64,000 nt of DNA from Patescibacteria group bacterium (GCA_049274945.1 JBASTP010000009.1:4441-68440), one strand, 5' to 3'; shown: positions 24,018 through 43,575, counted from the first letter of the stretch. A program made the numbers and translations. The notes: generated from the letters alone by a model not told the origin.

Positions 24018-24686
24018 ATGCAACGAGTCTTGATTAAGTGGTCTATGACGGTGGTGGTGCTCTTTGTGGCAATGTTGGCATTGTTCAACGTACGGCCCGG
24101 TCTTTTTGCCGACGCTGTCTATCCTCTAAAGTTCAAAAGCGAGATTGTGGCTGCCGCAGAAGAGTTCCACCTACGCCGCACCTTGATCGCCGCGCTGATT
24201 TTCACCGAAAGCCGATTTAAGGAAGGGTGTCCTAAATCAAATCGGGGGGCAATCGGGCTAACCCAAATGCTGCCCTCTACTGCCGCTGGGGTAGCTCAAA
24301 ATCTGGGAGTGGCGGATTTTTCAGTGCAAAAACTCTGTTCTGATCCAAGTCTCGCGATTCGGCTCGGAACGGCTTATTTGCGCTCGGCTTACGACCGGGC
24401 AATTGGCAAGGGTGCAACTCCCGAACTCGCCGAGCGAGTGGCGCTCGCCCACTATAATGGCGGCCCGCGGGCCGCGGACGTGCTGCTTGCGACCAATAAG
24501 ACTGCCGGGCTAGCCAACGAAACAAGGAAGTTTGTGCCTCTTGTGCTCGATCGGGAGAAAGTATATCTCGAACTCTACGGCGATGATTGGGGCGGGGAAG
24601 TGGAAGAACCGTTTGCCTTTAAACCGGGCCAGAACATCTTTAACTTACTTGATCCTAACAAGCTTGCAGCATTTCTAGGTTCGTGA
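24018..24686 (+). CDS. Lytic transglycosylase (SLT domain), membrane anchored
   Basis: ALIFTESRFKEGCPKSNRGAIGLTQMLPSTAAG...AYLRSAYD...ALAHYNGGP. Confidence 0.8.
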   Translation: MQRVLIKWSMTVVVLFVAMLALFNVRPGLFADAVYPLKFKSEIVAAAEEFHLRRTLIAALIFTESRFKEGCPKSNRGAIGLTQMLPSTAAGVAQNLGVADFSVQKLCSDPSLAIRLGTAYLRSAYDRAIGKGATPELAERVALAHYNGGPRAADVLLATNKTAGLANETRKFVPLVLDREKVYLELYGDDWGGEVEEPFAFKPGQNIFNLLDPNKLAAFLGS

Positions 24687-26311
24687 TGACATCGCAAGAT
24701 ATTCGTGACAAATTTGTAGCGTTTTTCAAGGAGAAAGGACACACCGAACTACCTGCTTCTTCGCTCGTACCTACCGATCCATCGGTGCTGTTTACCACTG
24801 CCGGGATGCAGCAATTTAAGGAGTGGTTTGTTAAACCCGAACTCGCCAAGCATAAACGGGTGGTGACGATTCAACCGTGCCTGCGCACCTCGGATATCGA
24901 AGCAGTGGGCGACGAGACTCACCTAACTTATTTTGAAATGCTCGGCAATTTTTCGTTTGGTGTTTACGGTAAAAAAGAAGCCATCGAATATGCGCTCGAA
25001 TGGTTCAGAAAAGATTTCGGAGTTGAGGAATCAATGCTCACTTTTTCTTACTTCGGCGGCGAGGGGGTATTGGAGGAAGATAGCGAATCACGAGCAATAC
25101 TGTTTGACCGGCTCGACCCCAAGTCGATAGAAAAAAAGGGAAGAAGCGACAATTTTTGGGGTCCGACCGGGGATACTGGGCCATGTGGGCCGACCGTAGA
25201 GTTCTATTACAAAGGCATCGAAATTTGGAATCTGGTATTTAATGAATATTTTTTCGACGGGAACAATTATAAAAAACTGGAAAAACTGGGCATCGATACC
25301 GGTGCCGGATTGGAGAGAATTGCAGCGACGTTAAACGGCTTCGAAAGTGTTTTCGAAACCGATGAGCTAAAAGCCCTCTTGGATATACTCCCCGAGGGCG
25401 ACCTGCGCTCGCGGCGGATTATTGTTGACCACGTCCGGGCGATCAACGGTTTGATAGGAGACGGGGTTATACCATCGAACAAAGCCCAGGGCGCGGTGCT
25501 GCGCCGGCTCATTCGCCGCGCGTTTACCCACGGCCGGCTGATTAGCGCGGACGATGATTTAGTAGCACAGTTGGTTAGTAGCACTGTAGCACGGATAGTG
25601 AAAACCGAGGTTGAAAAATTTTCCCAAACTCTGAAACAATCTATGAAAATCTATTCTCGAATTCTCGAGAAATCAAGAAAAGAAATTTCTGGTGAAGATG
25701 CTTTCCTACTCAAGGAAAGTTATGGCTTACCTGTCGAGTTAACGCAGGAATTGGCTCGCAAAGATGGTTATTCTGTTGACATGGCTGGTTTTCAACTTTA
25801 TGAATTAAAACATGTCGAGGCATCTGCCATGAGCTCTCCTGTCAAATTCAAAGGTGGGCTTGTTGAAAGAACCCCGGAAACAACTCGCTTGCACACAGCC
25901 CACCACTTATTACTCGCCGCGTTGCGAAAGGTGCTTGGCGAGCATGTAGTGCAGCGCGGGTCCAATATTACATCTGATCGTCTCCGAATCGATTTCTCAC
26001 ACCCCCGAGGCGTGAAGGAGGAAGAATTACGTAAAGTTGAAAAGTTGGTTAATCAATGGATTAAAGACGATCTTGAAGTTACGCGCGAAGAAATGTCGTT
26101 GCAAGAAGCGTTCAAAAAAGGCGCCCTGGGCGAATTCGGCGCGACCTATCCGGAAAAAGTGAGTGTGTATAGCATTGGTAATCCTCCAGTGTCGGTCGAA
26201 ATTTGCGGCGGGCCTCATGTGACAAAAACATCAGAAATCGGCAAGTTTAGAATAGTGAAAGAAGAATCATCGGGGTCTGGCATTAGACGGATAAGGGCAG
26301 TCCTTGACTAG
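24683..26311 (+). CDS. alaS: Alanine--tRNA ligase, compact form (catalytic + tRNA-recognition + editing domains, no C-Ala domain)
   Basis: FVAFFKEKGHTELPASSLVP...SVLFTTAGMQQFK...RVVTIQPCLRTSDIEAVGDETHLTYFEMLGNFSFG; editing-domain HTAHHLL...ICGGPHV; only 542 aa. Confidence 0.8.
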   Translation: MMTSQDIRDKFVAFFKEKGHTELPASSLVPTDPSVLFTTAGMQQFKEWFVKPELAKHKRVVTIQPCLRTSDIEAVGDETHLTYFEMLGNFSFGVYGKKEAIEYALEWFRKDFGVEESMLTFSYFGGEGVLEEDSESRAILFDRLDPKSIEKKGRSDNFWGPTGDTGPCGPTVEFYYKGIEIWNLVFNEYFFDGNNYKKLEKLGIDTGAGLERIAATLNGFESVFETDELKALLDILPEGDLRSRRIIVDHVRAINGLIGDGVIPSNKAQGAVLRRLIRRAFTHGRLISADDDLVAQLVSSTVARIVKTEVEKFSQTLKQSMKIYSRILEKSRKEISGEDAFLLKESYGLPVELTQELARKDGYSVDMAGFQLYELKHVEASAMSSPVKFKGGLVERTPETTRLHTAHHLLLAALRKVLGEHVVQRGSNITSDRLRIDFSHPRGVKEEELRKVEKLVNQWIKDDLEVTREEMSLQEAFKKGALGEFGATYPEKVSVYSIGNPPVSVEICGGPHVTKTSEIGKFRIVKEESSGSGIRRIRAVLD

Positions 26312-26359: not shown

Positions 26360-29300
26360 ATGCTACAACATGCTTGGGAACGGTTGAGGATGAGCGGCCG
26401 AGTGGCGCTCAGGTTGGCGTTGGTCGGTGGTTCGTTTTTATTGTTTACGACACTCCTGGGTATTACGATACCCACTAACGATGCAAGGCAGCTCGGCAAA
26501 GAATCAGCTGCGGAAGACGCCATCACCAGAGATCTCAATGAATTGAACGGCACGCAAACGCTGGTAGAAGGCCAACTGGTTATCAACAAGGAATCTGCCG
26601 CCCCAACGAGCGGCCAGGAAATTCGTAAGTCAATTACCCTTTCGTCCGGCAACACCGTTGATCTCAAAACAAATCAGGATGAGCGTTTCTCAATTATTGA
26701 AGCAAGGCCAGACATCACCACGTTCGCTGCGGCTGGCGGCGGTAGCAGCATCGTGACCTCAACTCCGCCCGAAGCGATACCGGAAAAAATTGATCCTGAG
26801 CTTGTGGCAGAGTTTGAGGCGGGCAGCAAGCAAGAGCCGGTGATTATTGAACTTAACAATATTGAGCCGCCGGAGTCCGGCGACAACTCCCAAGAAGGCA
26901 AGCAGAAAAAAGAAAAGCTCAAGCAGGCTGAGCAGAAACTAGGGAAGACGCTTGGTCGGAGTGGTGATGTCAAACAAGAGCTCGATTTGCAGATCGCGAG
27001 CGCCGTAGCGGCCACGGTTGACAAAAAGGGTCTCGCCAAGCTCACTGCCGATCCTTCGGTCAAGCGCATTGAGTTAGATCGCGAGGTCAAAGCAGTGCTC
27101 GATACCTCACTTGACGAGATCAAGGTTAAGGATGTGTGGCCTTCGTTTGATCGGAACAATCAAACGATGACTGGCGTGGGCAAGCGGGTTGCGATCATTG
27201 ACACCGGCGTTGACTACCGTCACGGCGATTTAGGAGGTTGCCTGGGTGCCAATTGCAAAGTGATCGGCGGGTATGATTTTGTCAACAATGACGCCGATCC
27301 TCTGGATGACCACGGCCACGGCACCCATGTGGCGGCCACCGCGGCTGGCAAGGGCACGTTGAATGGCGTTGCGCCAGATGCCAAGATCCTCGCCTACAAA
27401 GTACTGAACCAGTACGGTTCGGGATCATGGTCTAACGTGATTGCGGCAATCGGGCGAGCGACTGACCCAAACAATGATGGTAATACCGCCGACCACGCTG
27501 ACGTGGCGAATATGAGTTTGGGTGGTTCTGGTAATCCTGATGATGCGATCAGTCGGGCAGTTGATAACTCATCAGCCGTCGGGGTGGTTCATGCGATTGC
27601 CGCCGGCAATTCTGGCTCGAGCCCAAGCACGATCGGGACGCCCGGCACTGCTCGATCCGCCATCACAGTGGCTGCTTCCTGTAAGGCTGCTCAGGTCGGC
27701 GTTTACGGGTACTGTGCCACGCCGATCGCCAGCTTTAGTTCTCGCGGCCCGCTGGTCTGGAACGGCGAGGACATCCAAAAGCCGGACCTTGCCGCGCCCG
27801 GGGTTTACATTTGTGCCGCTTACATTGCCGCCGGCAGCTGTGCGAGCGGTTCTTACACCCGACTGTCCGGCACCTCGATGGCCACGCCTCACGTTGCCGG
27901 GGCCGCTGCCTTAGCTCGGCAGGCCTACCCGGACTATACGCCCGCCCAAATTAAGCAGCTTCTGAAAAGCACGGCGCGTTCGCTCGGCGGCAGCCTAACA
28001 TACAACGATCAAGGCGCTGGCTTGATTGATGTTAAAGCGGCGATTCCAGCCAATACTCAACTGACAGCGAGTCCATTGCGTTGGCAAGCGGTGAGCAACC
28101 CGAGTGTAAAACTTTCGACTTCGGAGCAAACGTTTTCGGTTACCCCAACGGTGCCGGAAATTTCCGCGCTTGCGGTAACCCACACGCTGTCCCAGCCCGG
28201 TATCACGCTGGCGTTTGACACCACCACCCTCCTCGTCTCGGGGCAAGGTAGCGCCACACTCAAGGCAACCGTAATCGTGGACAACGATCTTGTTAAATCC
28301 GGCAGCTACCAAGCCAATATCGTGCTCGCCGAATCCGGCACGACCAAAGGAATTATTCCGATCGACATAACGGTCAAGCCGACGATCACGTTTGGTTCAA
28401 CTGCCGAGATTAACTACACCGTTGATAATCCGAGCCTGACGACCTGGACTTCGCCGATCAAACCGCTGACCATCACCAATCTAAGAGCTGACATTGCCCT
28501 GAGTGTAACGGCTAGCGTGGTTGGTTTCCCTGGTAATGTTACCTTAAAGAGTAACCCATCGCCGATCCTAGTGGGAGCCGGCGCTCAAGCGAGCGTAGAC
28601 ACCTGGCTTGAAGTGGCTAACACCGGACTTGCCAATGGCACCTACCGCGGCAGCGTTAAGTTAGAATCCACTTCTGGTTCAACAATGGTGCCGGCCTCAT
28701 TCACCAAGTTCTATGTTCTGGAGATCAAGGACCCAACCAACTCGATCGTGGGCGGGACGCTCTGGATCCACGACCGCCAAGCCACTCAGTACTCGCGCTC
28801 CATGACCACAAACTCAACCACTCTCTACTTGAATGCCGCCGGCCCCTACGATATCGTGGCGTTCTATCCCCAAGTGTACGACACTGACGGTCGTCATATG
28901 TACACGGTGTTCAAAGAAGGGGTGGGCTTGGCTGCCACCGGCCAGGCGTCGGTCGCGATCAGCCGATCTGACGCCAAAAACGAAGTCAAGCTCGTGCCCA
29001 CTGATTCGGACGGCAACCGGGTTGCAAAGCTTTATGATATGAGCTACGGCATCGTCTATCTGTCCCGTCCAAGTTTGACTTCGTATGGGTCTTTGGCGGG
29101 CAGCGAATTTTCACCCGATGTCACCAAGCACTACTACTCGGATGTGAGCACGAACTACCAGGTTTTCCACCAGTTCATCAACCCGCCCTACACGCCGGCT
29201 GCCAAGGTGCACCTCTACTACGACGGTTTCAAGAGTTTGAGCGGCAACCAAACCACGGCCAACGCCGCCGCAGATTTCAAGAGTCTCCGTCACGAACTTT

Positions 29301-31315
29301 CCGTCAACCGAGCCGATGGTTCAATCGCGCCTCAACTGACAAGCTGCCTCATGTCAATATCCTGTATTGCGAACGGGTCGTATCCTGCCGCCTCACTGCC
29401 TTTGAGTCAAACCTTCTACTCGCTGACGCCGCCGACGCTCGCACCACCCAATGACACGAGGTACTATCTCAGATCAGATATCAATCGCACCGGTTGCGTG
29501 GCCGGCGAGACCTGCCATTCGGCCTTTATCACACCGTGGTTGGATATCATAAACCAAAAACGGCGGCTGTTTGACCCACTGCCCGCAATACAAGATGGCA
29601 CGATCTATAACGGCCTTGGACCGGTTTTTCCGGCAATCAAGTTTTTGAACGCCGCGAGCGGTATCAACCTCTACCCTTATTTTTACGGACCAAGGGCCGC
29701 GTTCTTGCGGCAGGACTACTCGGTCGGCGAGTACGACCCGATTAGCTACCAGATGGTCAACCAGCAGGGCTCGCTGATTTCCCAAGGAACCCTGCCGCGG
29801 CTGTCGCTCACAAGCGGCATTACTCCTTCCACTCCCTATGGCCCATTGCTCAACCTAGCTCCGAGCGGCGGCACTCTGGATTTCAAGATTGACTTGTTTG
29901 GCTACCGGGTTCGCAACCAAGCGATGAAAGCCAAGTTTTCGGCCAAGTTCAACCTTGCCTCAACCGATTCGAACCCGCCGGCGATCAAACGGCTCTACTT
30001 TTTTACGGGCGGCAAGCGCAGCGAACTCTACGAACCGGGATTGAATAACCGTCTCGAATTCGAGCTCGATCCGATCGGCGGCTCGATCACCCAGGCCAAG
30101 GTCTCTTACGCCACCGACGGCGTGAGCTTTACGCCACTGCCGGTGCAAGGCAGCTTTGGCAGCTACGCGGTTGATCTGCCAAACCTTCCGGCTGCGACCA
30201 AGCTGAGCTTGCAGATAGAAGGATCGGATGCGGCTGCGAACAGCTTGAGTTACACCTTCGAGTTGCCGGCCAACCTCGACCAGATCAAGCCGACCACTCG
30301 ATTCAGCAACCTCTTAGCCAACGCTTACTTATCCAAGATCGCCAGCATTATTGCCTCGGCAAGCGACGATCGCGGCATCGCCAAAGTTGAGCTCTACCGC
30401 TCGAGCGTGCTGATTGGTAGCAAGGCCGAGCCGCCCTTCGAGATTCCTTGGGACACTCGGGCGGTAACCGATGGCAGCTACACTTTGCAGCTCAAAGCGT
30501 ACGACGGCGCGGGCAACACTGCCACGGCCGACCTTGCTGTTACCGTTGACAACACCCCGCCGATCATCTACCAAATCAGCCAGCCGGGCGATACGTTAAC
30601 CAAGGGCGTGGCCGAGCTCGTTACCAGCTACTACGATCGGTTCGGGGTCACTAAGGTTGAGTATGACATTGACGGCGCCTACCACGGCCGAGCCACAGCC
30701 TTCCCCTGGATTGTCTATTGGGATACTCGCTCGCTTGCGAGCGGCTCGAGCCACTCGATTGTGTCTAAGGTCTACGACTATGCGGGCAATGTTTCGACCT
30801 CACCGGCTAAGCGAGTAACAGTGTATGATGCGCTACCGATCGTTTCGCCGCCGTCATCACCGGCCCCTGCTCCAGCTCCGCCGCCATCAGTCCCTTCGAG
30901 GAGTGCTCCGTCAGGAGAATCAAGACCGTCCCAACCATCGCCAAGCCAACCGGCGGCAGACGCACCAGCTCCGTCTCAACCCCAACAAGTTTCAGGCGGT
31001 CCGGCACCTGCTCCAGCACCGCCGCCAGCTCCGCCGCGTAAGCTCCGGCCGCTCAACAAAAAAGACCAGCGGCTTAAGTCCACGATCGAGCGTCAGCTCA
31101 AGAGCGCGGAAGGCCAAGTAAGCAAGTTCGAGGGACAACTTGGCGGTTTTCGCGCCAAGGAAGCCCAGCTTGCCGGCCAGCCGCAAACAGGCCGAGTCGC
31201 TCGTCAACTTCGTTCGGTGAGATCGAGTATCTCTCGGGCCGAACAAAGTTTAAACGCCGCCCGCGCCAAACGGTCTGAAGTCAGCTCTCGATTCGATAAG
31301 TTGATTTATTATTGA
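26360..31315 (+). CDS. Giant secreted subtilisin-like serine protease (peptidase S8) with long beta-rich extension, Pro-rich linker and C-terminal coiled-coil tail
   Basis: Catalytic triad blocks VAIIDTGVDYRH (Asp), DDHGHGTHVAATAAG (His), LSGTSMATPHVAGAAALARQ (Ser); N-terminal TM/signal; PPSSPAPAPAPPPSVPS...PAPAPAPPPAPP linker; 1651 aa. Confidence 0.85.
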   Translation: MLQHAWERLRMSGRVALRLALVGGSFLLFTTLLGITIPTNDARQLGKESAAEDAITRDLNELNGTQTLVEGQLVINKESAAPTSGQEIRKSITLSSGNTVDLKTNQDERFSIIEARPDITTFAAAGGGSSIVTSTPPEAIPEKIDPELVAEFEAGSKQEPVIIELNNIEPPESGDNSQEGKQKKEKLKQAEQKLGKTLGRSGDVKQELDLQIASAVAATVDKKGLAKLTADPSVKRIELDREVKAVLDTSLDEIKVKDVWPSFDRNNQTMTGVGKRVAIIDTGVDYRHGDLGGCLGANCKVIGGYDFVNNDADPLDDHGHGTHVAATAAGKGTLNGVAPDAKILAYKVLNQYGSGSWSNVIAAIGRATDPNNDGNTADHADVANMSLGGSGNPDDAISRAVDNSSAVGVVHAIAAGNSGSSPSTIGTPGTARSAITVAASCKAAQVGVYGYCATPIASFSSRGPLVWNGEDIQKPDLAAPGVYICAAYIAAGSCASGSYTRLSGTSMATPHVAGAAALARQAYPDYTPAQIKQLLKSTARSLGGSLTYNDQGAGLIDVKAAIPANTQLTASPLRWQAVSNPSVKLSTSEQTFSVTPTVPEISALAVTHTLSQPGITLAFDTTTLLVSGQGSATLKATVIVDNDLVKSGSYQANIVLAESGTTKGIIPIDITVKPTITFGSTAEINYTVDNPSLTTWTSPIKPLTITNLRADIALSVTASVVGFPGNVTLKSNPSPILVGAGAQASVDTWLEVANTGLANGTYRGSVKLESTSGSTMVPASFTKFYVLEIKDPTNSIVGGTLWIHDRQATQYSRSMTTNSTTLYLNAAGPYDIVAFYPQVYDTDGRHMYTVFKEGVGLAATGQASVAISRSDAKNEVKLVPTDSDGNRVAKLYDMSYGIVYLSRPSLTSYGSLAGSEFSPDVTKHYYSDVSTNYQVFHQFINPPYTPAAKVHLYYDGFKSLSGNQTTANAAADFKSLRHELSVNRADGSIAPQLTSCLMSISCIANGSYPAASLPLSQTFYSLTPPTLAPPNDTRYYLRSDINRTGCVAGETCHSAFITPWLDIINQKRRLFDPLPAIQDGTIYNGLGPVFPAIKFLNAASGINLYPYFYGPRAAFLRQDYSVGEYDPISYQMVNQQGSLISQGTLPRLSLTSGITPSTPYGPLLNLAPSGGTLDFKIDLFGYRVRNQAMKAKFSAKFNLASTDSNPPAIKRLYFFTGGKRSELYEPGLNNRLEFELDPIGGSITQAKVSYATDGVSFTPLPVQGSFGSYAVDLPNLPAATKLSLQIEGSDAAANSLSYTFELPANLDQIKPTTRFSNLLANAYLSKIASIIASASDDRGIAKVELYRSSVLIGSKAEPPFEIPWDTRAVTDGSYTLQLKAYDGAGNTATADLAVTVDNTPPIIYQISQPGDTLTKGVAELVTSYYDRFGVTKVEYDIDGAYHGRATAFPWIVYWDTRSLASGSSHSIVSKVYDYAGNVSTSPAKRVTVYDALPIVSPPSSPAPAPAPPPSVPSRSAPSGESRPSQPSPSQPAADAPAPSQPQQVSGGPAPAPAPPPAPPRKLRPLNKKDQRLKSTIERQLKSAEGQVSKFEGQLGGFRAKEAQLAGQPQTGRVARQLRSVRSSISRAEQSLNAARAKRSEVSSRFDKLIYY

Positions 31316-31376
31316 GCGTGACAAGCGAAGATTCTCCGTTTACAATTGACGAGTAACTTTTTTTTGGCAGTCCGAT

Positions 31377-33017
31377 ATGGATCAAGAATACAAATACGAC
31401 TATTTGATTTTAGGAACGGGCATGTCGGCGCTCACCGCCGGCGCGCTGCTGGCGAACGCCGGTTATAAAGTGTGCATGCTCGAAGCCCACGACATTCCCG
31501 GCGGTTACGCCCAATCGTTCAAATGGGGCGATTTTTACTTTTGCGGCCAGGTGCACTACATTTGGGGGTGCGGCCCGGGCGGCAAAATCAACACGTTTCT
31601 TAAAAAGCTCGGCCTGGAAAACGATATCACCTTTGAGCTCTACGACATCAATGGTTACGATCGGGTGGGTTTGCCGGATGGCAAGATTGTTTCCATCCCC
31701 AACGGTTTTGACGAACTGGCCGAAAATATTGAAAAAGCCTACCCCGGCCAAAAGGCCAACGTCCAAAAGTTTACCAAAACTTTGCTCGATATTCGCGCGG
31801 AACTGCGCCGGATTCCCGACCGTAAAATTGCCTGGTGGGAATATGTAACCAAAATCTGGGGGTTCCCCAATCTCATAAAATACCGCAACAGTACGCTCCA
31901 AGATATCTTTGACGAATGTAAGCTAAGTCCGGAGGCCCAGGCCGTCCTGGCAGGCAACGCCGGCGATTTTATGCTGCCTCCCAAAGAGCTTTCGATTTTT
32001 CCCTACGCGGCGCTGTTTTGCGGCTACAATGGCGGCGCCTACTACCCAACTAAACATTATAAATACATGATCGATCGGATCGCCCAATCGATCACCGGGC
32101 ACCGCGGCTGCCACATTTTCTACGAAACGCTCGTGACGAAAATCAATGTTGAGGGCGATCGGGTAACGAGCGTCGAAACGCAAGATGGCCGAACCTTTAC
32201 CGCGCGAACCATTATTTGCAACATCGATCCCAAAGCCGCCGCCAAGATGATTGGATATGATAAACTCCCAGCCCGTTACACGCGCAAACTCAACTATACC
32301 TACTCGGGTTCTTCACTTATGGTGTACCTTGCGCTCAAGGATATCGATCTCGTGAAATCCGGTTTGGGCCGGTGGAACTTGTGGCACCTTGGCCAGTGGG
32401 ATGTTAATAAAATCTGGGATGATCAGAAAAAGGGCGACTTTAGCCACCCGTGGTTTTTTATGTCAACACCTACCTTGCATTCCAAAGCCCCCGGCACCGC
32501 GCCTGCCGGACATGAGATTGTTGAGATTGCCACCTATACTGAGCACGTAGACTGGAAGGCGCTCCACGATCAAGATTACAAGGCCTACGAAGCCAAAAAA
32601 AATGCCTTGGTTGAAAAGCTCCTTGATATTATTGAAGCACGCTATATCCCTAATATCCGCAAACACATCGTGGTTAAGCTTCCCGGCAGTCCTACCTCCA
32701 ACGAAGAGTGGGCGTGGGCGCCCATGGGCAACGCCTATGGGCAAACCATGACGCCCAAAGAAATCGGCATCCGCCGTTTTCCCATGGATACGCCGTTTAC
32801 CAACTTCTACTTTTGCAATGCCACGGCCGGCTATGCCAGCATCTACGCCACGGTCGGTAATGGCATCAGCCTCTATGCCAAACTGACCGGCGATGATTTT
32901 TACCACCTCTCCGATGGTCCGACCGACGAGGAGTTTGCTGCTCAAGCACGAGCAATGAGTTCGGCGGCCCGTTTACCAGATCGCGCCGCTCCCTCGGTCC
33001 AAGGAGCGTTCAAGTAG
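31377..33017 (+). CDS. FAD-dependent oxidoreductase, phytoene-desaturase/amine-oxidase family (CrtI-like)
   Basis: YDYLILGTGMSALTAGALLANAGYKVCMLEAHDIPGGYA dinucleotide-binding N-terminus; 546 aa. Confidence 0.75.
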   Translation: MDQEYKYDYLILGTGMSALTAGALLANAGYKVCMLEAHDIPGGYAQSFKWGDFYFCGQVHYIWGCGPGGKINTFLKKLGLENDITFELYDINGYDRVGLPDGKIVSIPNGFDELAENIEKAYPGQKANVQKFTKTLLDIRAELRRIPDRKIAWWEYVTKIWGFPNLIKYRNSTLQDIFDECKLSPEAQAVLAGNAGDFMLPPKELSIFPYAALFCGYNGGAYYPTKHYKYMIDRIAQSITGHRGCHIFYETLVTKINVEGDRVTSVETQDGRTFTARTIICNIDPKAAAKMIGYDKLPARYTRKLNYTYSGSSLMVYLALKDIDLVKSGLGRWNLWHLGQWDVNKIWDDQKKGDFSHPWFFMSTPTLHSKAPGTAPAGHEIVEIATYTEHVDWKALHDQDYKAYEAKKNALVEKLLDIIEARYIPNIRKHIVVKLPGSPTSNEEWAWAPMGNAYGQTMTPKEIGIRRFPMDTPFTNFYFCNATAGYASIYATVGNGISLYAKLTGDDFYHLSDGPTDEEFAAQARAMSSAARLPDRAAPSVQGAFK

Positions 33018-34276
33018 TCCCCGGCGAAGTAGATCCCTCCCTCGCCTTGGTGGTGGCGGGTAAAATTACTGACCACGGAAACAGTGCCATGTTCGAATGT
33101 TGGCATAGCGGCCGGCCAGCGAACTAGATCGTGAAAGAAGACTTCTTTTGATCGCTCGCGAGCTTCCGGACAAACTGTGAATAACGCTCGTCGTACAATC
33201 CGATTAATCTCCTGATCACTTTTCTTAAGGAGTTGCTGGGCCGCTTCGTCGTGGAGATAAACATTAAGGAGAGTGTGATTGTCTCGCACTAACTCTTGGC
33301 CTTTTCGGCCCTCAAAAATACAGCAGCTGATGATTTGGTTTTCCACAAACGGGACATAGATGCACTGGGTGGTGTCGGAGAATAGATCGAGCGGGACGCG
33401 GTATGACAGCACAATGCTAGCGGCGTACTTACTTGCTTTAAGCATGGTTTTTTGGGCAGCGGTTGGGTTTGAGAGTAGTCTTAGCGCCGCCGGCGCCGGG
33501 CACGCCAACACCACCGCCGAAAAGTGCTCGTCTTTTCCATCTATTCGGATTCGACACTCGTTTTTGATTGAACTAACGCCCTCGATTTTAGCTCGATATC
33601 GGACGGTAAGTTTTCTGGCTAATGCTTTGGGAATCGCTGACATCCCGCCCCTCGGATGCCGGGCAGTGAAGTTGCCTTTTGTTTTCATCATGGTAAGCAT
33701 ACCAAAGACAACCGCGGTGCTCATCGCAGCGGACCGGTAGAAATGGAGGGCGGCGGTAAGGGGATCAATGAGATAATCAACCACCTCATCGCCCATCTCT
33801 CGCCGGAGGTAGCTGCCCGCCGGCTCAAAATCCAAGGTCGGCCGGATCGTTGAGAGATCAAAAAAATTGCCCGGGCCCGATCGAAATAGGCTTTTGAGCA
33901 GCCATTTCACAAGACGGAGCCGAGCAGGCAACGAAATAACATTCAGCCGAAAAACACCCAAGGGGCCGCGCGCGCCGTAGCGGTAGGTTTTGCCGCTACG
34001 GATTACCCGATGGCGGCTGCCCGATATCATCGGAGTTAATGCAACACCGAACTCCGCCGCATAGGATTTCAGCTGATGGTAATCCTCGCTCAAAAAGGTC
34101 GCCCCTGGATTGAACTGGAAGCCGTTTTTGAAGCGCGTTGCCATACGACCGCCAGGGACTCCGGTTTTTTCATAAACCACCACGGTAAAACCAGCATTTT
34201 TTAGCTCATAAGCCGCGGTAAGCCCGGCAATGCCTGCGCCAATTACCGCTACTCGAGTTTCCGCGTGTTGCTTCAT
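32942..34276 (-). CDS. FAD-dependent oxidoreductase, amine-oxidase/protoporphyrinogen-oxidase-like
   Basis: RVAVIGAGIAGLTAAYELKNAGFTVVVYEKTGVPGGRMAT; 3' end overlaps the preceding gene by ~75 nt. Confidence 0.75.
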   Translation of the reverse strand: MKQHAETRVAVIGAGIAGLTAAYELKNAGFTVVVYEKTGVPGGRMATRFKNGFQFNPGATFLSEDYHQLKSYAAEFGVALTPMISGSRHRVIRSGKTYRYGARGPLGVFRLNVISLPARLRLVKWLLKSLFRSGPGNFFDLSTIRPTLDFEPAGSYLRREMGDEVVDYLIDPLTAALHFYRSAAMSTAVVFGMLTMMKTKGNFTARHPRGGMSAIPKALARKLTVRYRAKIEGVSSIKNECRIRIDGKDEHFSAVVLACPAPAALRLLSNPTAAQKTMLKASKYAASIVLSYRVPLDLFSDTTQCIYVPFVENQIISCCIFEGRKGQELVRDNHTLLNVYLHDEAAQQLLKKSDQEINRIVRRALFTVCPEARERSKEVFFHDLVRWPAAMPTFEHGTVSVVSNFTRHHQGEGGIYFAGDYLNAPWTEGAARSGKRAAELIARA

Positions 34277-34317
34277 CTTTGCAGTGTACCGAAAAGTCCG
34301 TATACTTTACTAGACGT

Positions 34318-35259
34318 ATGACGATCTATGATCTACTCATTATTGGCGCCGGGCCAGCCGGCATCGAAGCCGCCCTCCAGGCCGCGGCGCGCGGTCTTAG
34401 CTATTTGCTAATCGATAAGTTCGACGCCGGCTCGCTGATTGAGCAGACCATGAATAACAAAAAGTTCTACCAGATTTATGGCCGAAACGTCGATCTTTTG
34501 AAAGGTACTCTTGCCTTTCCCGATCGTGCCAAAGGGTACGAGCTCGTTGCGCTCTGGAAGCAGCAAGTCGCGCCGCTCGCGTTCCACAAAAACGAGTCGC
34601 TCAAGACCATTACCCGTTCTGGCCAGGAACCATTTGTCGTTACTACCACCAAAGATCAGTATCAGGCCCGGTATGTGCTCCTTACGAGCGGCACGTTCGA
34701 ACATCACAAAACCCTCCAAGTGGATGGCGAGCACGGCAACCCAAAAGTCCACTACACCCTCGACTACTACCAGGACTACCGCGACCAGGCGGTGGTAGTG
34801 GTGGGCGGCGGCAACACGGCGCTCGAGACCGCGATTTATTTTGGCGATGCCAACAAGGTAACTTTGCTCGTTCGTCGGGACCGTTTTACCGAGAGCGCGA
34901 CCGAGGCAAACCAGATGGCGATCCGCGAGTTGGTACAAAAAGGTACGCTGCACGTGGTCTACCATGCCGCGGTTATGCAGATTACGCCCCAGGAGATAGC
35001 CGTCCAAACCGGCCAAGGCCCACTCACGCTACCGTACGATTTGCTTTTTGTTCATATTGGTTTTGAAAAGCCAACCGATTTTCTAGCAAGCCTTGGCCTG
35101 CAGGTGCGTAACGGCGAGCCGGTGTACAACGAAAAGTTTGAGTCTAACATCCCGGGCCTCTACATTGCCGGTGCGCTCACCGGCTCGGATTCAATCGTAG
35201 AATGCGCCAACCAAACCTACCAAGTCGTCCACCAGTTGCCTAATTCCCCTGGCATTTAG
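34318..35259 (+). CDS. Pyridine nucleotide-disulfide oxidoreductase (thioredoxin-reductase-like)
   Basis: YDLLIIGAGPAGIEAALQAA FAD site and VVVVGGGNTALETAIYF NAD(P) site; start placed at the ATG at 34318 (MTIYDLL). Confidence 0.75.
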   Translation: MTIYDLLIIGAGPAGIEAALQAAARGLSYLLIDKFDAGSLIEQTMNNKKFYQIYGRNVDLLKGTLAFPDRAKGYELVALWKQQVAPLAFHKNESLKTITRSGQEPFVVTTTKDQYQARYVLLTSGTFEHHKTLQVDGEHGNPKVHYTLDYYQDYRDQAVVVVGGGNTALETAIYFGDANKVTLLVRRDRFTESATEANQMAIRELVQKGTLHVVYHAAVMQITPQEIAVQTGQGPLTLPYDLLFVHIGFEKPTDFLASLGLQVRNGEPVYNEKFESNIPGLYIAGALTGSDSIVECANQTYQVVHQLPNSPGI

Positions 35260-35449: not shown

Positions 35450-35776
35450 ATGATATCGATCATAACCAAGTATCGGCATAGGCGTCGAAGACAAGTCAGT
35501 GCGCAAATCAATTTTCCACCGGATCAATACCAAGGCCCCTGGATATGGAATAAGGTGGTTGGAGCATTTCTGGTTGCGGTTGCGGGGGCGCTTCTTTTCA
35601 ATTACTTTTTGCCATGGTCCATCATAACGTTTTTTTTGGAACCTCTCCGATATCCAATCGCATACGTAGCTCGCGTGTGCGATTTTTGTTATTTGCATTA
35701 TCAGCAGAGTAGTGTCAATATATATCTTGACCTTGCAGTTGGTCTCGCCCTTAAACAATTGACGGGAGATGATTAA
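35450..35776 (+). CDS. Small 2-3-TM membrane protein (cassette copy 1)
   Basis: QGPWIWNKVVGAFLVAVAGALLFNYFLPW parallels YGFWTWDRIFFGLLVASVGSLITLFFGPYW in 38015..38356. Confidence 0.5.
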   Translation: MISIITKYRHRRRRQVSAQINFPPDQYQGPWIWNKVVGAFLVAVAGALLFNYFLPWSIITFFLEPLRYPIAYVARVCDFCYLHYQQSSVNIYLDLAVGLALKQLTGDD

Positions 35777-36884
35777 TATGTTTTTGCCCGGTGAATCGCA
35801 ATTGCTCGACGTAATGACTCGTGTTGCCGCTCAGAAGGATCATGGGATTGGCCACGTCCTGCGCGTTGGCTGCTACGTTCGGCTGATTATGGAAAAGACA
35901 GGGGGCTTTACGCCGGAAGCTTGTGAGCGAGTAGAGATGATTGCCCGCATCCACGACATTGGCAACACCGTGATCCTCGATACGATCCTGGATAAACAAG
36001 ACCCTCTAATCGATTGGGAACGATTGGAAATTGCCCAACATTCGGTAGCCGGTTGTGAAATGTTAGGCAATGTTTTTCATGAATTTTTGCCAATGATCCG
36101 CCACCATCATGAAAATTGGGACGCGAGCGGTTATCCCGATCACCTGGCTGGCGAACGAATTCCGCCTATGGCCCGGATTCTGCGGATGGCTGACGCCTTT
36201 GACGCCATGACCAGTTGGCGGCCGTACCGCATAAATCCGATCAATGTTGATCAAGCTATCCAGCAATTAAGAACCAAAGCCGGAATCGAGTTTGACCCAA
36301 AGCTCGTGCCAGTATTTGCGGACCAGGTTGATAAAATCAGCGCCATCATCAAGTGGATAGGCAATAGTACGCCACTCCATCATGACAGTCGTCTGGCGAT
36401 TGACTTTAACGTTATTGCTGGAGGGGCGGCCCTTACTGACGCATGGCATAGTAAGAGCCATGCGTTCCTAAATTTTCCGGAGAATCCCGGCGTGGTTGAC
36501 TTGCTTCGGGAACTTTCCTGCCGCTACTTCCGGGGTTGGGTTTTTATCTGGCCAAACTCGTCGAGAGAATGGAATGATCACAAGCAAGACCAGTGGTTAC
36601 GCCACCACCATGTTTTCGATCGCGCCTGCATTGCAAATTGGTCACTGGACTATTATATGTGTAATGTTGTTACAGCGTGCCGAGATTCGGCAATCTCACA
36701 CTTCATCGGATATGATCCAGAAACCCTCAAAAAACTATTGGGAATAGTGCCGAACTTATACCTTTTCAGACGAGATTCACTTCGCATCCCTGTCGACTTA
36801 AGGATTAAGGTTGCTAACTCAACCCAGCAACTCACTAATTCGATCATCCAACCCTGGCCCATGGCAATTCCTCCAGAGGCGTAA
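35769..36884 (+). CDS. HD-GYP domain protein (c-di-GMP phosphodiesterase family) with uncharacterised ~170-aa C-terminal domain
   Basis: HDIGNTVI ... HHHENWDASGYPDHLAGERIPPMARILRMADAFDAMTSWRPYR is the HD-GYP signature. Confidence 0.8.
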   Translation: MINMFLPGESQLLDVMTRVAAQKDHGIGHVLRVGCYVRLIMEKTGGFTPEACERVEMIARIHDIGNTVILDTILDKQDPLIDWERLEIAQHSVAGCEMLGNVFHEFLPMIRHHHENWDASGYPDHLAGERIPPMARILRMADAFDAMTSWRPYRINPINVDQAIQQLRTKAGIEFDPKLVPVFADQVDKISAIIKWIGNSTPLHHDSRLAIDFNVIAGGAALTDAWHSKSHAFLNFPENPGVVDLLRELSCRYFRGWVFIWPNSSREWNDHKQDQWLRHHHVFDRACIANWSLDYYMCNVVTACRDSAISHFIGYDPETLKKLLGIVPNLYLFRRDSLRIPVDLRIKVANSTQQLTNSIIQPWPMAIPPEA

Positions 36885-36992
36885 CGCCACGACGCCCAAG
36901 CACCTTTACGGTGCTCTTTTTTGTCCTCTCAGGCGTACATAGAGGCGTACATACGATTTTTATCCCGCTCGTCGGGTAAGAAACCCCAAAGA

Positions 36993-37760
36993 CACTTCCG
37001 AAGTGGGAATAGGTTACACATTGGTACATTTTTGACAATTGTTGTATGTTAGACTTATGGCACGCCGAAAAGAAATACTCGCAACCGGAGAAATTTACCA
37101 TGTGTTCAATAGGTCGATAGACAATAAAACTATTTTCAACTCCTCAATAGAGTTAAACCGCTTTTTGAATTTAATAAGGTTCTATGGATGTCTCAGGCCA
37201 ATCCGATTCTCTAAATTAACCGTCCAGCAACGAGAACTAATGATCAAGAAAAACGGTGGCGAGCCAATTGTTGAAATCATCTGTTATTGCTTGATGCCTA
37301 ATCATTTTCACTTATTGCTTAAACAGCTAAATGAAGGAGGCATTACCTCTTTTTTACGAAAAATCAGTGATGGATACAGTCGTTACTTTAATCTCATTCA
37401 TCACCGTGCTGGACCATTATTTCAAAACAATTTTAAAGCAGTCAGAATAGCTACTAACGAACAATTGCTCCATGTTTCTCGATACATTCATCTTAACCCT
37501 CTCACTGCCTATTTAGTTAATAATCTTGACGACTATCGTTGGTCTTCTTACCACGAATATATTAGCAGTAGTGACCTGAGGAATAGTGATTTCACCTGCA
37601 ACAAGAAATTAATTCTGGATCAATTCAAAAAGAAGTCCGGTTATCGAGCATTTGTGTTAGACAATGCGAATTACCAGAAAAAGTTAAAGGAAATCCAATA
37701 TCTTCTTATCGAGAATCCGACATAATTACCGAAGTGACACCTGAAGACACTTCGGAAGTG
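36993..37760 (+). mobile_element. REP-associated tyrosine transposase (RAYT) unit: gene plus flanking CACTTC(C/G)GAAGTG palindromes
   Basis: Palindrome CACTTCCGAAGTG at 36993..37005; hairpin CCGAAGTG-acacctgaaga-CACTTCGG at 37729..37756 immediately after the stop; AT-rich gene. Confidence 0.55.
37039..37725 (+). CDS. IS200/IS605-like Y1 HUH transposase of the RAYT (TnpA-REP) type
   Basis: HUH motif CYCLMPNHFHLLLK and catalytic-Tyr motif SRYIHLNPLTAYLV (compare E. coli RAYT HMHCIW / YIYINPVKHGWV). Confidence 0.8.
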   Translation: MLYVRLMARRKEILATGEIYHVFNRSIDNKTIFNSSIELNRFLNLIRFYGCLRPIRFSKLTVQQRELMIKKNGGEPIVEIICYCLMPNHFHLLLKQLNEGGITSFLRKISDGYSRYFNLIHHRAGPLFQNNFKAVRIATNEQLLHVSRYIHLNPLTAYLVNNLDDYRWSSYHEYISSSDLRNSDFTCNKKLILDQFKKKSGYRAFVLDNANYQKKLKEIQYLLIENPT

Positions 37761-37798
37761 TCCGGAATCACCAGGATCAGCATTCGCGCTTCTGCGGC

Positions 37799-37827
37799 TT
37801 GCATTTAGCCTGGAAATTGGTTACAGT
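37799..37827 (+). promoter_or_regulatory. Conserved sigma70-like promoter of cassette copy 2 (TTGCAT-17-TACAGT)
   Basis: Shares the GCATTTAGCCT core and downstream CTGAAAAA / GAAAGTGA blocks with copy 1. Confidence 0.4.
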
Positions 37828-37879
37828 GTGTGGGCAATCAACCTGAAAAATAGAAAGTGAGGTATTCCTAGTGGGCGAG

Positions 37880-38005
37880 ATGCAATGGAACCGGGAACAC
37901 GGTGTCTTGGGGACGCTGCTCCTGGGCTTCTTGAGCCTTATTTGGTTTTCTGCGTACGAGATTTACTGCTATCTTGTACCGCGCGGTGGTAATAACCGGA
38001 GGTGA
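37880..38005 (+). CDS. 41-aa hydrophobic micropeptide (cassette copy 2)
   Basis: MQWNREHGVLGTLLLGFLSLIWFSAYEIYCYLVPRGGNNRR; paralog of 35322..35444. Confidence 0.45.
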   Translation: MQWNREHGVLGTLLLGFLSLIWFSAYEIYCYLVPRGGNNRR

Positions 38006-42686: not shown

Positions 42687-42962
42687 ATGAAAACCGCCAA
42701 GTTGCCCTCGTTTTTCCAATCAATTTTTTGGGACACCCGGCTTGCAAATATTGACTACAAAAAACATTCCCGCTATGTGATCGAGCGTGTGCTCCAGTGG
42801 GGCAGGCCCCAGCACGTACGCTGGCTACTCGGCCACTATTCGAAACGCATGATTTTGCATGTGGCAAAAACCGGGCGGGAAGTCCGCCCAGAGCGCAAAT
42901 ATTTCTGGAAGTTCTATTTAACTCACCAACGAAAAAAACGAACAAAATTATATGCACACTGA
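42687..42962 (+). CDS. Small basic hypothetical protein, candidate partner (antitoxin/regulator) of the AbiEii-like gene
   Basis: 91-aa ORF directly upstream of, and overlapping by 11 nt, the AbiEii-like gene; no family recognised; AT-rich. Confidence 0.4.
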   Translation: MKTAKLPSFFQSIFWDTRLANIDYKKHSRYVIERVLQWGRPQHVRWLLGHYSKRMILHVAKTGREVRPERKYFWKFYLTHQRKKRTKLYAH

Positions 42963-43575
42963 AGCGCTTGCTCCAAAAACAAAAAAAGCTTTCGAGCTAC
43001 TTGGAACCGTGGAGATGATCCAACAATTTTATTTGGCAGGTGGTACTGCGGCCGCATTATATCTTGGCCATCGGTCCTCCCACGATCTTGATTTTTTTTC
43101 AACTCAAAGATTTGATTCGGAATTACTAAGACTTGAACTCGAAAAGGTAGGGAATCTTGCAATCGAATTCAAAAAAAAAGATACCTTGCTAGGAAAGTTT
43201 AACGGGGTAAAAATTAGTTTTTTTTATTACCCGTACCCCTTGATTCAACCGTTGGCTTACTTTGACTCAGTTGCTATCACCAATCAAAAAGATATTGCAG
43301 CAATGAAAATTAATGCGATTGCTGGTCGCGGGATTAAACGAGATTTCATTGATCTCTACTCACTCATGGAAGCCAATCATTGGCGATTGATTGAAGTAAT
43401 AGCGTGGTTCATGAAAAAATACAAAAAATCAAATTACAACATGGTGCACGTTCTCAATGCGTTAATTTATTTTGAGGATGCTGACAAAACCCCGATTCCA
43501 AAAATGATCACACCGATTGATTGGGGAAAGATTAAAGAATATTTCCGCGATGCGGTCAAAGAAATTGAACTGTAA
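42952..43575 (+). CDS. AbiEii/AbiGii-family nucleotidyltransferase (type IV toxin-antitoxin toxin-like; DUF1814)
   Basis: FYLAGGTAAALYLGHRSSHDLDFFS matches the family hallmark (GGTAL...R.SxDLDF); strongly AT-rich versus flanks. Confidence 0.7.
   Translation: MHTEALAPKTKKAFELLGTVEMIQQFYLAGGTAAALYLGHRSSHDLDFFSTQRFDSELLRLELEKVGNLAIEFKKKDTLLGKFNGVKISFFYYPYPLIQPLAYFDSVAITNQKDIAAMKINAIAGRGIKRDFIDLYSLMEANHWRLIEVIAWFMKKYKKSNYNMVHVLNALIYFEDADKTPIPKMITPIDWGKIKEYFRDAVKEIEL

What the first reader, a model, noticed from the sequence alone, without database searches (positions are those of the whole stretch)
31377..35259. Cluster of three FAD/NAD(P)-binding oxidoreductases (CrtI-like, amine-oxidase-like, TrxR-like)
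Three consecutive flavoenzymes each carry a GxGxxG dinucleotide fold. They are arranged +,-,+ with a 75-nt 3' overlap between the first two. A CrtI-type desaturase or isomerase plus an amine oxidase and a disulfide reductase-like enzyme is an unusual concentration of redox chemistry for a reduced genome. It could act on isoprenoid, lipid or amine substrates taken from a host.
Basis: partly seen in the sequence, partly recalled or inferred. Interest (0 to 1): 0.5.

Follow-up and report, generated by a model that had tools for sequence, protein, structure and literature searches.

The report
Conserved flavoenzyme trio in a CPR bacterium
Three adjacent flavin enzymes in this tiny-genome bacterium are real; two form a gene pair of unknown function also kept together in other ultra-small bacteria, archaea and chlamydiae, possibly to alter double bonds in host lipids.

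Summary
Three intact flavoprotein genes lie +,-,+ with a 76-nt tail-to-tail overlap.

- P2 (32942-34276, minus strand) is PPOX-like.
- P3 (probably 34318-35259) has a YpdA/TrxR fold but no conserved cysteine.

None reaches the curated cut-off of any NCBIfam family, so none is a housekeeping CrtI, PPOX or TrxR.

P1 and P2 form a self-contained gene pair. They are adjacent in 54 of 75 loci, from CPR bacteria, DPANN archaea, Chlamydiae and a few others. 46 pairs are convergent and 33 of those overlap at their 3' ends. Flanking genes vary and show no recurring carotenoid, haem or isoprenoid genes. P1 is very constrained: about 55% identity between CPR and archaeal copies.

P3 joins the pair only in one CPR sub-lineage, always divergent from P2. 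That is exactly the lineage where P1 lacks a conserved N-terminal peptide.

Function is not shown. My best inference (about 0.35) is modification of C=C bonds in a hydrophobic, host-derived lipid or isoprenoid, with P3 supplying NAD(P)H electrons.

I rate it an uncharacterised variant of known enzyme kinds, of moderate interest.

The parts
31318..31346 (+). Promoter-like site upstream of P1 (GTGACA-17-TACAAT, 10 of 12)
   Evidence: This is a consensus match only. The region holds 7 such sites against 3.9 +/- 2.2 in shuffles, so it is weak evidence.
31377..33017 (+). P1: 546-aa FAD enzyme of the CrtI/CrtISO/RetSat/CrtD superfamily, from an uncharacterised and highly conserved subfamily
   Evidence: ORF. 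Pfam Amino_oxidase and NAD_binding_8.

The best NCBIfam matches are all far below cut-off: CrtISO 99.5 against 586.9 bits, CrtD 90.6 against 549.7, crtI_fam 85.2 against 238.1.

Mean column identity in the family is 57-66%, with invariant Cys56, Cys480, His38, His60 and His227.
32942..33017 (.). 76-nt tail-to-tail overlap of P1 and P2. The last residues of P1 are read antisense to P2's conserved C-terminal FAD motif.
   Evidence: P1 residues 534-546 are disordered in the model, with pLDDT below 50. 33 of 46 convergent P1/P2 pairs elsewhere also overlap, with a median of -15.5 nt.
32942..34276 (-). P2: 444-aa FAD enzyme with an amine-oxidase fold, closest to protoporphyrinogen oxidase (PPOX/HemY) but outside that family
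   Evidence: Pfam Amino_oxidase scores 153 bits over its full length.

TIGR00562 scores 80.8 against a cut-off of 97.85, and HpnE 73 against 283.

AF2 pLDDT is 95.6. Foldseek's top hit is M. xanthus PPOX 2IVD at TM 0.82 and 19% identity; monoamine oxidases score almost as well at TM 0.80.

The family profile matches PPOX 1SEZ best at 153.8 bits, against 118 for renalase and 89 for PDS.
34277..34317 (.). 41-nt divergent spacer between the P2 and P3 start codons; it holds a promoter-like site for P3 at 34278-34306
   Evidence: The equivalent spacers are 54 nt in L001 and 18 nt in L002.
34318..35259 (+). P3: 313-aa flavoprotein with two dinucleotide-binding domains (FAD and NAD(P)H), YpdA/TrxR-like and cysteine-free. 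The maximal ORF starts at TTG 34279.
   Evidence: Pfam Pyr_redox_3 scores 141 bits and Pyr_redox_2 121 bits.

TIGR04018 YpdA scores 146.8 against a cut-off of 339.9, and TrxR 100.6 against 343.

The best PDB match is YpdA/Bdr 7A7B at 113 bits, followed by TrxR-like FNR at 71 bits.

GAGPAG and GGGN(S/T)ALE are conserved across the clade, and no cysteine is.

Best explanation
P1 and P2 form a conserved, self-contained two-enzyme module. P1 is a CrtI/CrtISO/RetSat-like FAD enzyme and P2 is a PPOX-like FAD enzyme. In this CPR sub-lineage the module gains P3, a cysteine-free NAD(P)H-dependent flavoprotein with a YpdA/TrxR fold, transcribed divergently from P2.

Most likely P1 and P2 act one after the other, or as a complex, on one hydrophobic substrate that carries C=C bonds. 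Candidates are a fatty-acyl or isoprenoid lipid, a polyprenol or a polyene, probably obtained from the host. The chemistry would be saturation, isomerisation or desaturation of double bonds. P3 would pass electrons from NAD(P)H to keep the flavins reduced, as CrtISO- and RetSat-type chemistry requires.

Shown here: the genes, their folds, the cofactor motifs, the conserved linkage and the failure to join any housekeeping family.

Inferred: the substrate class, the direction of the chemistry and P3's role as electron donor.
For: Linkage:
- Of 75 loci with a P1 ORF, 54 have P2 adjacent. 46 of those are convergent, and 33 of the 46 overlap at their 3' ends. Four more loci have P2 within 8 kb. Five of the 17 loci without P2 end less than 2 kb beyond P1, and in one of them (L034) a truncated P2 sits at the contig end.
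- Flanking genes differ between loci. 122 flanking proteins show no recurrent Pfam family; DUF817 appears three times.
- The pair occurs in many CPR classes, in Woesearchaeota and Nanoarchaeota, in Parachlamydiales and Waddliaceae, and in a few Planctomycetota and Myxococcota. One archaeal contig has a DUF460 neighbour and another a TrmB neighbour.

Family placement:
- P1 is under strong constraint, at about 55% identity between CPR and archaeal copies.
- P1 has a CrtD/CrtI fold. Its best family models are CrtISO and CrtD. JGI names some homologues all-trans-retinol 13,14-reductase.
- P2 is PPOX-like.
- CrtI is membrane-peripheral and acts on a lipophilic substrate held in liposome membranes. 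It shares a flavoprotein superfamily with PPOX and monoamine oxidase. CrtISO needs reduced FAD, and CrtI needs O2 or a quinone as acceptor (PMC3382138).
- A CrtI-like enzyme, UfaD, desaturates phospholipid acyl chains (PMC7380195).

P3:
- It has FAD and NAD(P)H motifs and no redox cysteine.
- Relatives at about 35% identity are fused to 2x[4Fe-4S] domains, which suggests an electron-transfer role.
- P3 is adjacent in 10 loci, always next to P2. All 10 have a P1 that lacks the conserved N-terminal peptide; none of the 54 loci scored as carrying the peptide has P3.

Biology:
- CPR and DPANN organisms are reported to scavenge host lipids and modify them. One example is a single-double-bond difference between the lipids of Huberarchaeota and those of their host (PMC7242380).
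- One Vogelbacteria locus has a patatin-like phospholipase between P1 and P2.
Against: - No substrate evidence exists. This fold also serves amine, amino-acid, nicotine, porphyrinogen and nucleotide-sugar chemistry.
- P2 resembles monoamine and putrescine oxidases almost as well as PPOX (TM 0.80 against 0.82).
- Hosts of CPR, DPANN and Chlamydiae make chemically different lipids, so a single shared lipid substrate is not obvious.
- P3 is absent from most loci, so it cannot be a general requirement.
- The link between P3 and the short N-terminus probably reflects one evolutionary event in one clade.
- The patatin neighbour is a single case.
- In a close relative (L084) P2 is deleted and P1 is truncated, so the module is dispensable there.
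Confidence: 0.35

Rival explanations
1. Carotenoid synthesis or modification. P1 would be a CrtD/CrtI-type desaturase and P2 a second desaturase, for example as part of the bacterioruberin-type pathway claimed for some Patescibacteria.
For: P1's closest structure is a gamma-carotene desaturase, and its best family models are CrtISO, CrtD and CrtI. A Lake Baikal study reported lyeJ, crtD and cruF in Patescibacteria using HMM hits at E below 1e-15 (PMC9948471). P1 would pass that threshold against a CrtD model, at 9e-26.
Against: - Scores reach at most about a third of the curated cut-offs: 36% for crtI_fam and about 17% for CrtISO and CrtD. The same holds for 10 wider relatives of P1.
- No phytoene synthase, GGPP synthase, cyclase, LyeJ or CruF was found among the annotated window ORFs. 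None recurred among the 122 flanking proteins.
- Many carriers are groundwater CPR and DPANN MAGs, where pigments have no obvious use.
- CrtI-type desaturation needs O2 or a quinone as acceptor (PMC3382138). From my own knowledge, CPR bacteria generally lack quinones.
Confidence: 0.12
2. Oxidation of amines, polyamines or amino acids. P2, and perhaps P1, would be a flavin amine oxidase acting on soluble nitrogen compounds taken from the host.
For: P2 gives a full-length Pfam Amino_oxidase match. Monoamine and putrescine oxidases superpose on it almost as well as PPOX, at TM 0.77-0.80. The P2 family profile hits L-amino-acid, monoamine and putrescine oxidases at 100-110 bits.
Against: The PPOX family scores clearly higher than the amine oxidases: 154, 138 and 127 bits against 118 or less. 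P1's specific structural relatives are carotenoid desaturases, with a Z gap of 7 to the next hit. Amine oxidases need O2 and release H2O2, which is awkward for the largely anaerobic carriers (my inference). I did not test for the aromatic cage or the catalytic Lys.
Confidence: 0.15
3. P3 is a YpdA-type reductase of a low-molecular-weight disulfide, or another NADPH-dependent redox-homeostasis enzyme. It would sit next to an unrelated P1/P2 pair by chance.
For: YpdA/Bdr is P3's best PDB and NCBIfam match. The YpdA structure paper argues that Cys14 is buried about 8 A from the flavin and is replaced in YpdA homologues of other phyla, so a missing Cys does not exclude YpdA-type chemistry (10.1101/2020.12.02.408641). 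Most P1/P2 loci lack P3.
Against: P3 scores 146.8 bits against a cut-off of 339.9. Identity to P3 falls from 38% or more in the 47 closest hits to about 35% in generic YpdA-like proteins. In all 10 loci where P3 was found with P1, it sits beside P2; where gene calls exist it is divergent from P2 with an 18-54 nt spacer. From my own knowledge, bacillithiol is not known in CPR bacteria. Synteny is kept at only 40% P3 identity in L002.
Confidence: 0.1
4. Tetrapyrrole metabolism. P2 would be a true protoporphyrinogen or coproporphyrinogen oxidase used for haem synthesis or salvage.
For: PPOX is P2's best structural and profile match. P2 only narrowly misses the TIGR00562 cut-off, at 80.8 against 97.85 bits. 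Some sources annotate homologues as protoporphyrinogen or coproporphyrinogen oxidase.
Against: P2 scores 87 against 560 bits, and 70 against 517, on the PPOX equivalog models. Identity to solved PPOX structures is 17-20%. No other hem gene was found in the window, and none recurred in the flanks. The obligate partner is a CrtI-like enzyme, which has no part in haem synthesis. From my own knowledge, CPR and DPANN organisms generally lack haem pathways.
Confidence: 0.05

Closest known systems
CrtI / CrtD / CrtISO / RetSat flavoenzymes (COG1233, TIGR02734 superfamily; structures 4REP and 4DGK)
   Different: Identity to the solved members is 16-18%. Scores reach only 17-36% of the curated cut-offs. 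There is no carotenoid gene context. P1 has its own signature motifs, such as FC(A/G)QVHYIWGCGPGG and (W/F)CNA(S/T)(S/A)G, with invariant Cys and His. It is obligatorily paired with a PPOX-like gene.
Protoporphyrinogen oxidase (HemY/PgoX, CgoX; 1SEZ, 2IVD, 3I6D)
   Same: P2 has the same fold at TM 0.82, and PPOX is its best profile match at 154 bits.
   Different: P2 is below the family cut-offs, at 17-20% identity. It lacks a haem pathway context and is found in lineages that generally lack haem synthesis.
YpdA/Bdr bacillithiol-disulfide reductase, and TrxR-like ferredoxin-NADP+ reductases
   Same: P3 has the same length and two-Rossmann architecture, with FAD and NADPH motifs. The best PDB hit is 7A7B at 113 bits, followed by FNR 6GAS at 71 bits.
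   Different: P3 scores 146.8 against a cut-off of 339.9 bits. GGGPCG is replaced by an invariant GAGPAG, and no cysteine is conserved. P3 forms a CPR-specific clade linked to P1/P2.
Plant and cyanobacterial poly-cis carotene pathway (PDS/ZDS desaturases plus CrtISO isomerase)
   Same: This is an analogy only. That pathway also pairs a PPOX-related desaturase with a CrtI-related enzyme that depends on reduced FAD, both acting on one lipophilic chain (PMC3382138). The P2 profile aligns full-length with PDS 5MOG at 89 bits.
   Different: P2 is much closer to PPOX than to PDS. There is no phytoene synthase, and the organisms are non-phototrophic symbionts.
UfaD, a CrtI-like fatty-acyl desaturase of furan fatty-acid synthesis
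   Same: UfaD is a precedent for a CrtI-like flavoenzyme that acts on phospholipid acyl chains (PMC7380195).
   Different: I made no sequence comparison with UfaD. UfaD works with a SAM methylase and O2, and no such partner is conserved here.

Membership tests
CrtI phytoene desaturase family (TIGR02734) | Whole-protein score at or above the curated cut-off of 238.1 bits | tested here: not met
   P1 scores 85.2 bits. Ten wider relatives of P1 score 87-163 bits, all below the cut-off.
CrtI phytoene desaturase family (TIGR02734) | Three-domain CrtI fold with an N-terminal FAD dinucleotide motif | tested here: met
CrtI phytoene desaturase family (TIGR02734) | Genomic association with carotenoid genes such as crtB and crtE | tested here: not met
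   None was found among the annotated window ORFs. No carotenoid family recurs among the 122 proteins flanking the pair in other loci. Whole genomes were not available.
CrtISO carotenoid isomerase (TIGR02730) / RetSat | Score at or above 586.9 bits; activity that requires reduced FAD | tested here: not met
   P1 scores 99.5 bits, the best of all models but only 17% of the cut-off. The FADred requirement cannot be tested with these tools.
Protoporphyrinogen oxidase (TIGR00562, NF008845) | Score at or above 97.85 bits (TIGR00562) or 560 bits (NF008845) | tested here: not met
   P2 scores 80.8 and 87.4 bits.
Protoporphyrinogen oxidase (TIGR00562, NF008845) | PPOX fold | tested here: met
   Foldseek gives TM 0.82 to 2IVD. 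The family profile scores 153.8 bits to 1SEZ. Monoamine oxidases are nearly as close, so the fold alone does not discriminate.
Protoporphyrinogen oxidase (TIGR00562, NF008845) | Haem-pathway context | tested here: not met
   No hem gene was found in the window, and none recurred in the flanks.
Thioredoxin reductase (TIGR01292) | Redox-active CxxC in the NADPH domain | tested here: not met
   P3 has a single Cys, at position 296 of the 313-aa protein, and it is not conserved. No Cys column is conserved in the clade.
Thioredoxin reductase (TIGR01292) | Score at or above 343.45 bits | tested here: not met
   P3 scores 100.6 bits.
YpdA/Bdr (TIGR04018) | Score at or above 339.9 bits | tested here: not met
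   P3 scores 146.8 bits.
YpdA/Bdr (TIGR04018) | Cys14 within GGGPCG, conserved in Firmicutes YpdA | tested here: not met
   GAGPAG is invariant in the P3 clade. The catalytic role of Cys14 is disputed (10.1101/2020.12.02.408641), so this is a weak criterion.
YpdA/Bdr (TIGR04018) | FAD and NADPH dinucleotide-binding motifs in a protein of about 320 aa | tested here: met
   P3 has GAGPAG, GGGNTALE and VRR. It aligns with 7A7B over residues 5-291.
TrxR-like ferredoxin-NADP+ reductase | C-terminal aromatic residue stacking on the flavin; a ferredoxin or flavodoxin partner | not tested
   I have only sequence similarity: 70.6 bits to 6GAS and 8C16. Fer4-fused relatives exist at about 35% identity.

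The most novel reading that the evidence does not exclude
The P1/P2 pair, with P3 as its NAD(P)H-linked reductase in this lineage, is the so far unidentified enzyme system by which ultra-small symbionts (CPR bacteria, DPANN archaea and environmental chlamydiae) change the double-bond pattern of lipids or polyprenyl compounds they scavenge from their hosts. It would have spread between domains by horizontal transfer as a two-gene cassette.
Probability: 0.2. Interest if true: 0.8.

Novelty: new variant of a known kind. Interest (0 to 1): 0.45.

Why it matters
CPR bacteria and DPANN archaea lack known lipid synthesis pathways. They are thought to take lipids from their hosts and then alter them, but no enzyme has been assigned to that step (PMC7242380).

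This gene pair is a concrete, testable candidate. It is strongly conserved, self-contained, shared across domains and built from folds that precedents link to lipophilic substrates. It was found in only 185 confirmed loci across 185,579 representative genomes, although that scan relied on sequence patterns and will have missed some.

If it instead acts on an amine or a tetrapyrrole, it would still be an unrecognised metabolic ability of these reduced genomes.

The finding also warns against calling 'CrtD', 'PPOX' or 'TrxR' in such genomes from weak HMM hits.

Tried and rejected
- **Housekeeping assignment.** All curated NCBIfam models fall below cut-off for the three proteins and for 10 wider relatives of P1.
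- **Functional clues from neighbours.**
  - Pfam on 30 window ORFs found only translation, cell-wall, division and secretion genes.
  - Clustering about 1,100 ORFs from 84 loci found only P1, P2 and P3 recurring.
  - A Pfam scan of 122 immediate flanks found nothing recurrent.
  - Small recurring neighbour clusters were a methyltransferase, DUF817, an SDR, MerR/TipAS, a DEAD helicase and a Na/H exchanger. None is informative.
- **A second P2 copy or other paralogues in the window.** None found, although the relatives L001, L005 and L020 have tandem P2 genes.
- **Literature.** Searches for CPR, DPANN or Chlamydiae with phytoene desaturase, RetSat or PPOX found no description of this pair. One query failed on syntax.
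- **AlphaFold database search.** The afdb50 library was unavailable.
- **BfaA.** I could not confirm from the paper that it has an amine-oxidase fold, so I do not use it as a precedent.
- **Terminator and promoter scans.** They gave no significant enrichment.
- **Not possible with these tools.** I had no multimer prediction.

Full report
**1. What is in the sequence**

The region holds three long ORFs:
- P1, 31377-33017 (+), 546 aa
- P2, 32942-34276 (-), 444 aa
- P3, 34279-35259 (+), 326 aa

P1 and P2 converge and share 76 nt, at 32942-33017. P2 and P3 diverge.

P3 most likely starts at ATG 34318, giving 313 aa. Its homologues begin M-x-x-YDL, and the nearest one is 313 aa at full coverage. 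A promoter-like TTTGCA-17-TATACT sits at 34278-34306. That leaves a 41-nt spacer between P2 and P3.

The dinucleotide-binding motifs are GTGMSA in P1, GAGIAG in P2, and GAGPAG plus GGGNTA in P3. The window holds no other paralogue.

**2. The organism and its surroundings**

The closest homologues come from Patescibacteria/CPR MAGs, including Berkelbacteria and Vogelbacteria.

Pfam scans of 30 other window ORFs found only these kinds of gene:
- translation: a short AlaRS, a class I LysRS, SerRS and S1
- the cell envelope: SLT, MreB/MreC, PBP2 and an LD-carboxypeptidase
- also FtsA-like, SecA, a few sugar-metabolism genes and two mobile or toxin elements

No carotenoid, isoprenoid, fatty-acid, haem or thiol-cofactor gene was found.

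**3. Family placement**

An exhaustive phmmer search of 1.84 billion representative proteins found only 287 at E up to 1e-30. Identity runs continuously from 54% down to 25%. Ten of those wider relatives also fail every curated cut-off. P1 therefore belongs to an uncharacterised branch of the CrtI superfamily.

*P2.* It gives a full-length Amino_oxidase match of 153 bits. It is closest to PPOX but below cut-off, at 80.8 against 97.85 bits, and scores 73 against 283 for HpnE. The model has pLDDT 95.6. Its best structural hit is M. xanthus PPOX at TM 0.82 and 19% identity, though monoamine oxidases reach 0.80. A profile of 60 family members scores PPOX at 154, 138 and 127 bits, ahead of renalase at 118, amine oxidases at about 105 and PDS at 89.

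*P3.* It is closest to YpdA/Bdr: TIGR04018 at 146.8 bits against a cut-off of 339.9, and PDB 7A7B at 113 bits. TrxR-like FNR (71 bits) and TrxR follow. P3 has no CxxC. The YpdA GGGPCG motif is GAGPAG throughout the clade, and no cysteine column is conserved. The YpdA structure paper argues that Cys14 is buried and is replaced in other phyla. So P3 is certainly not a TrxR, but chemistry of the YpdA type, with hydride passing directly from the flavin, is not excluded. Relatives at about 35% identity are often fused to a 2x[4Fe-4S] domain, which hints at electron transfer.

**4. The decisive result: conserved linkage**

A pattern scan of one genome per GTDB species found 185 confirmed P1 relatives, and 80 loci were fetched. 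I added further loci from protein look-ups and the window itself. That gave 75 loci with a P1 ORF:
- 46 have P2 immediately downstream and convergent
- 8 have P2 adjacent in another orientation
- 4 have P2 within 8 kb
- 17 have no P2; 5 of these end less than 2 kb beyond P1, and one of the five (L034) shows a truncated P2 at the contig end

Of the 46 convergent pairs, 33 overlap at their 3' ends. The median is -15.5 nt, and the window's 76 nt is among the longest.

Clustering all ORFs showed that only P1, P2 and P3 recur. A Pfam scan of 122 immediate flanks found no recurrent family.

Carriers include many CPR classes, Woesearchaeota and Nanoarchaeota, Parachlamydiales and Waddliaceae, and some Planctomycetota and Myxococcota. 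Archaeal-type neighbours (DUF460 on one contig, TrmB on another) support the archaeal origin of two DPANN contigs.

P1 is strongly constrained. Mean column identity is 57-66%, and CPR and archaeal copies share about 55% identity, with invariant Cys and His residues. P2 evolves faster, at 35-40% identity.

So P1/P2 is a self-contained two-gene module, not a chance concentration of redox genes.

**5. P3 is a lineage-specific addition**

P3 is adjacent in 10 loci including the window, always beside P2. Where gene calls exist, it is divergent from P2. The arrangement holds even at 40% P3 identity, in a Paceibacterota genome (L002).

P3 proteins with 38% or more identity to the query are few. They form a clade separate from generic YpdA-like proteins.

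All 10 P3-linked loci have a P1 that lacks a conserved N-terminal peptide of about 25 residues, M(A)KKSSTxALTxEQxxxQDxRY. None of the 54 loci scored as carrying the peptide has P3. This is probably one evolutionary event, so it is suggestive only. It would fit P3 replacing whatever that peptide recruits.

Variation among close relatives:
- L001 has two tandem P2 genes.
- L084, a Berkelbacteria contig syntenic with the window, has lost P2. Its P1 is truncated at residue 492, while its P3 stays 89% identical to the window's.

**6. How it most likely works**

*Shown:* three flavoproteins with intact cofactor motifs, a conserved P1/P2 cassette, and P3 with both FAD and NAD(P)H sites.

*From established knowledge:*
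- CrtI is a membrane-peripheral enzyme that acts on a lipophilic substrate in membranes. It shares a flavoprotein superfamily with PPOX and monoamine oxidase.
- CrtI needs O2 or a quinone as acceptor, whereas CrtISO carries out a non-redox reaction that needs reduced FAD (PMC3382138).
- A CrtI-like enzyme, UfaD, desaturates phospholipid acyl chains (PMC7380195).
- CPR and DPANN organisms are reported to scavenge host lipids and modify them (PMC7242380).

*Inference:* P1 and P2 act together on the C=C bonds of a hydrophobic substrate derived from the host. P3 feeds NAD(P)H electrons to keep the flavins reduced. That suits organisms which, from my own knowledge, generally lack quinones and respiratory chains. 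I put this at about 0.35.

*Rivals:* carotenoid modification (0.12), amine or amino-acid oxidation (0.15), P3 as an independent YpdA-type reductase (0.10) and tetrapyrrole oxidation (0.05). A chance grouping of unrelated housekeeping genes is effectively excluded by the synteny.

**7. Comparison and novelty**

Each protein is a recognisable member of a known superfamily. None meets the curated membership criteria of CrtI, CrtISO, CrtD, PPOX, HpnE, TrxR or YpdA.

I found no paper describing the P1/P2 cassette or its P3 extension. One study labelled Patescibacteria genes 'crtD' at a threshold that P1 would pass.

I rate it a new variant of known kinds. It would be of moderate interest now, and high interest if the lipid-remodelling reading were confirmed.

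Noticed in passing
P1 homologues in loci L010-L071; absent from window 31377: Most P1 proteins carry a conserved N-terminal peptide of about 25 residues, M(A)KKSSTxALTxEQxxxQDxRYxxxH. The window's P1 and every other P3-linked P1 lack it: 10 of 10 against 0 of 54. It could be a docking or membrane motif that P3 functionally replaces.
   Followed up: partly
L084:4910-7336 (Berkelbacteria JACPWR010000039.1): A contig syntenic with the window (S8 protease, P1, P3, FtsA-like) has lost P2 completely. Its P1 is cut at residue 492 and only 63% identical to the window's, while its P3 is 89% identical. This suggests the module is decaying or has been replaced by recombination there.
   Followed up: partly
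L001:9065-11784, L005, L020: Some relatives have two tandem P2 paralogues, about 41% identical to each other's nearest window match, between P1 and P3. The window has only the copy next to P1.
   Followed up: no
L006:2953-3855: In one Vogelbacteria locus a patatin-like phospholipase gene lies between P1 and P2. It is the only lipid-related neighbour I found.
   Followed up: no
window 26360-31315 (+): A 1651-aa protein lies directly upstream of P1. It has a subtilisin-type (Peptidase_S8) region, a Pro/Ser-rich linker and a C-terminal coiled-coil-like tail. The S8 assignment rests on its 1596-aa counterpart in L084. Its position relative to the flavoenzyme genes differs in L001.
   Followed up: no
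window 37039-37725 (+): A 228-aa protein related to the IS200/Y1 transposases (Y1_Tnp, 29 bits) sits in a stretch of lower G+C: 0.446 for 36001-38000.
   Followed up: no
window 35769-36884 (+): An HD_5/HD-domain protein of the HD-GYP type lies immediately downstream of P3. It is not conserved next to the module elsewhere.
   Followed up: no
window 42952-43575 (+): An AbiEii-type nucleotidyltransferase toxin gene of a type IV toxin-antitoxin system.
   Followed up: no
window 24683-26311 (+): The alanyl-tRNA synthetase is only 542 aa: a catalytic core plus the SAD domain. The same short form is found in relative L001.
   Followed up: no
window 50075-50728 (+): A 217-aa protein matches only the central Cas2-like domain of PaaX.
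   Followed up: no
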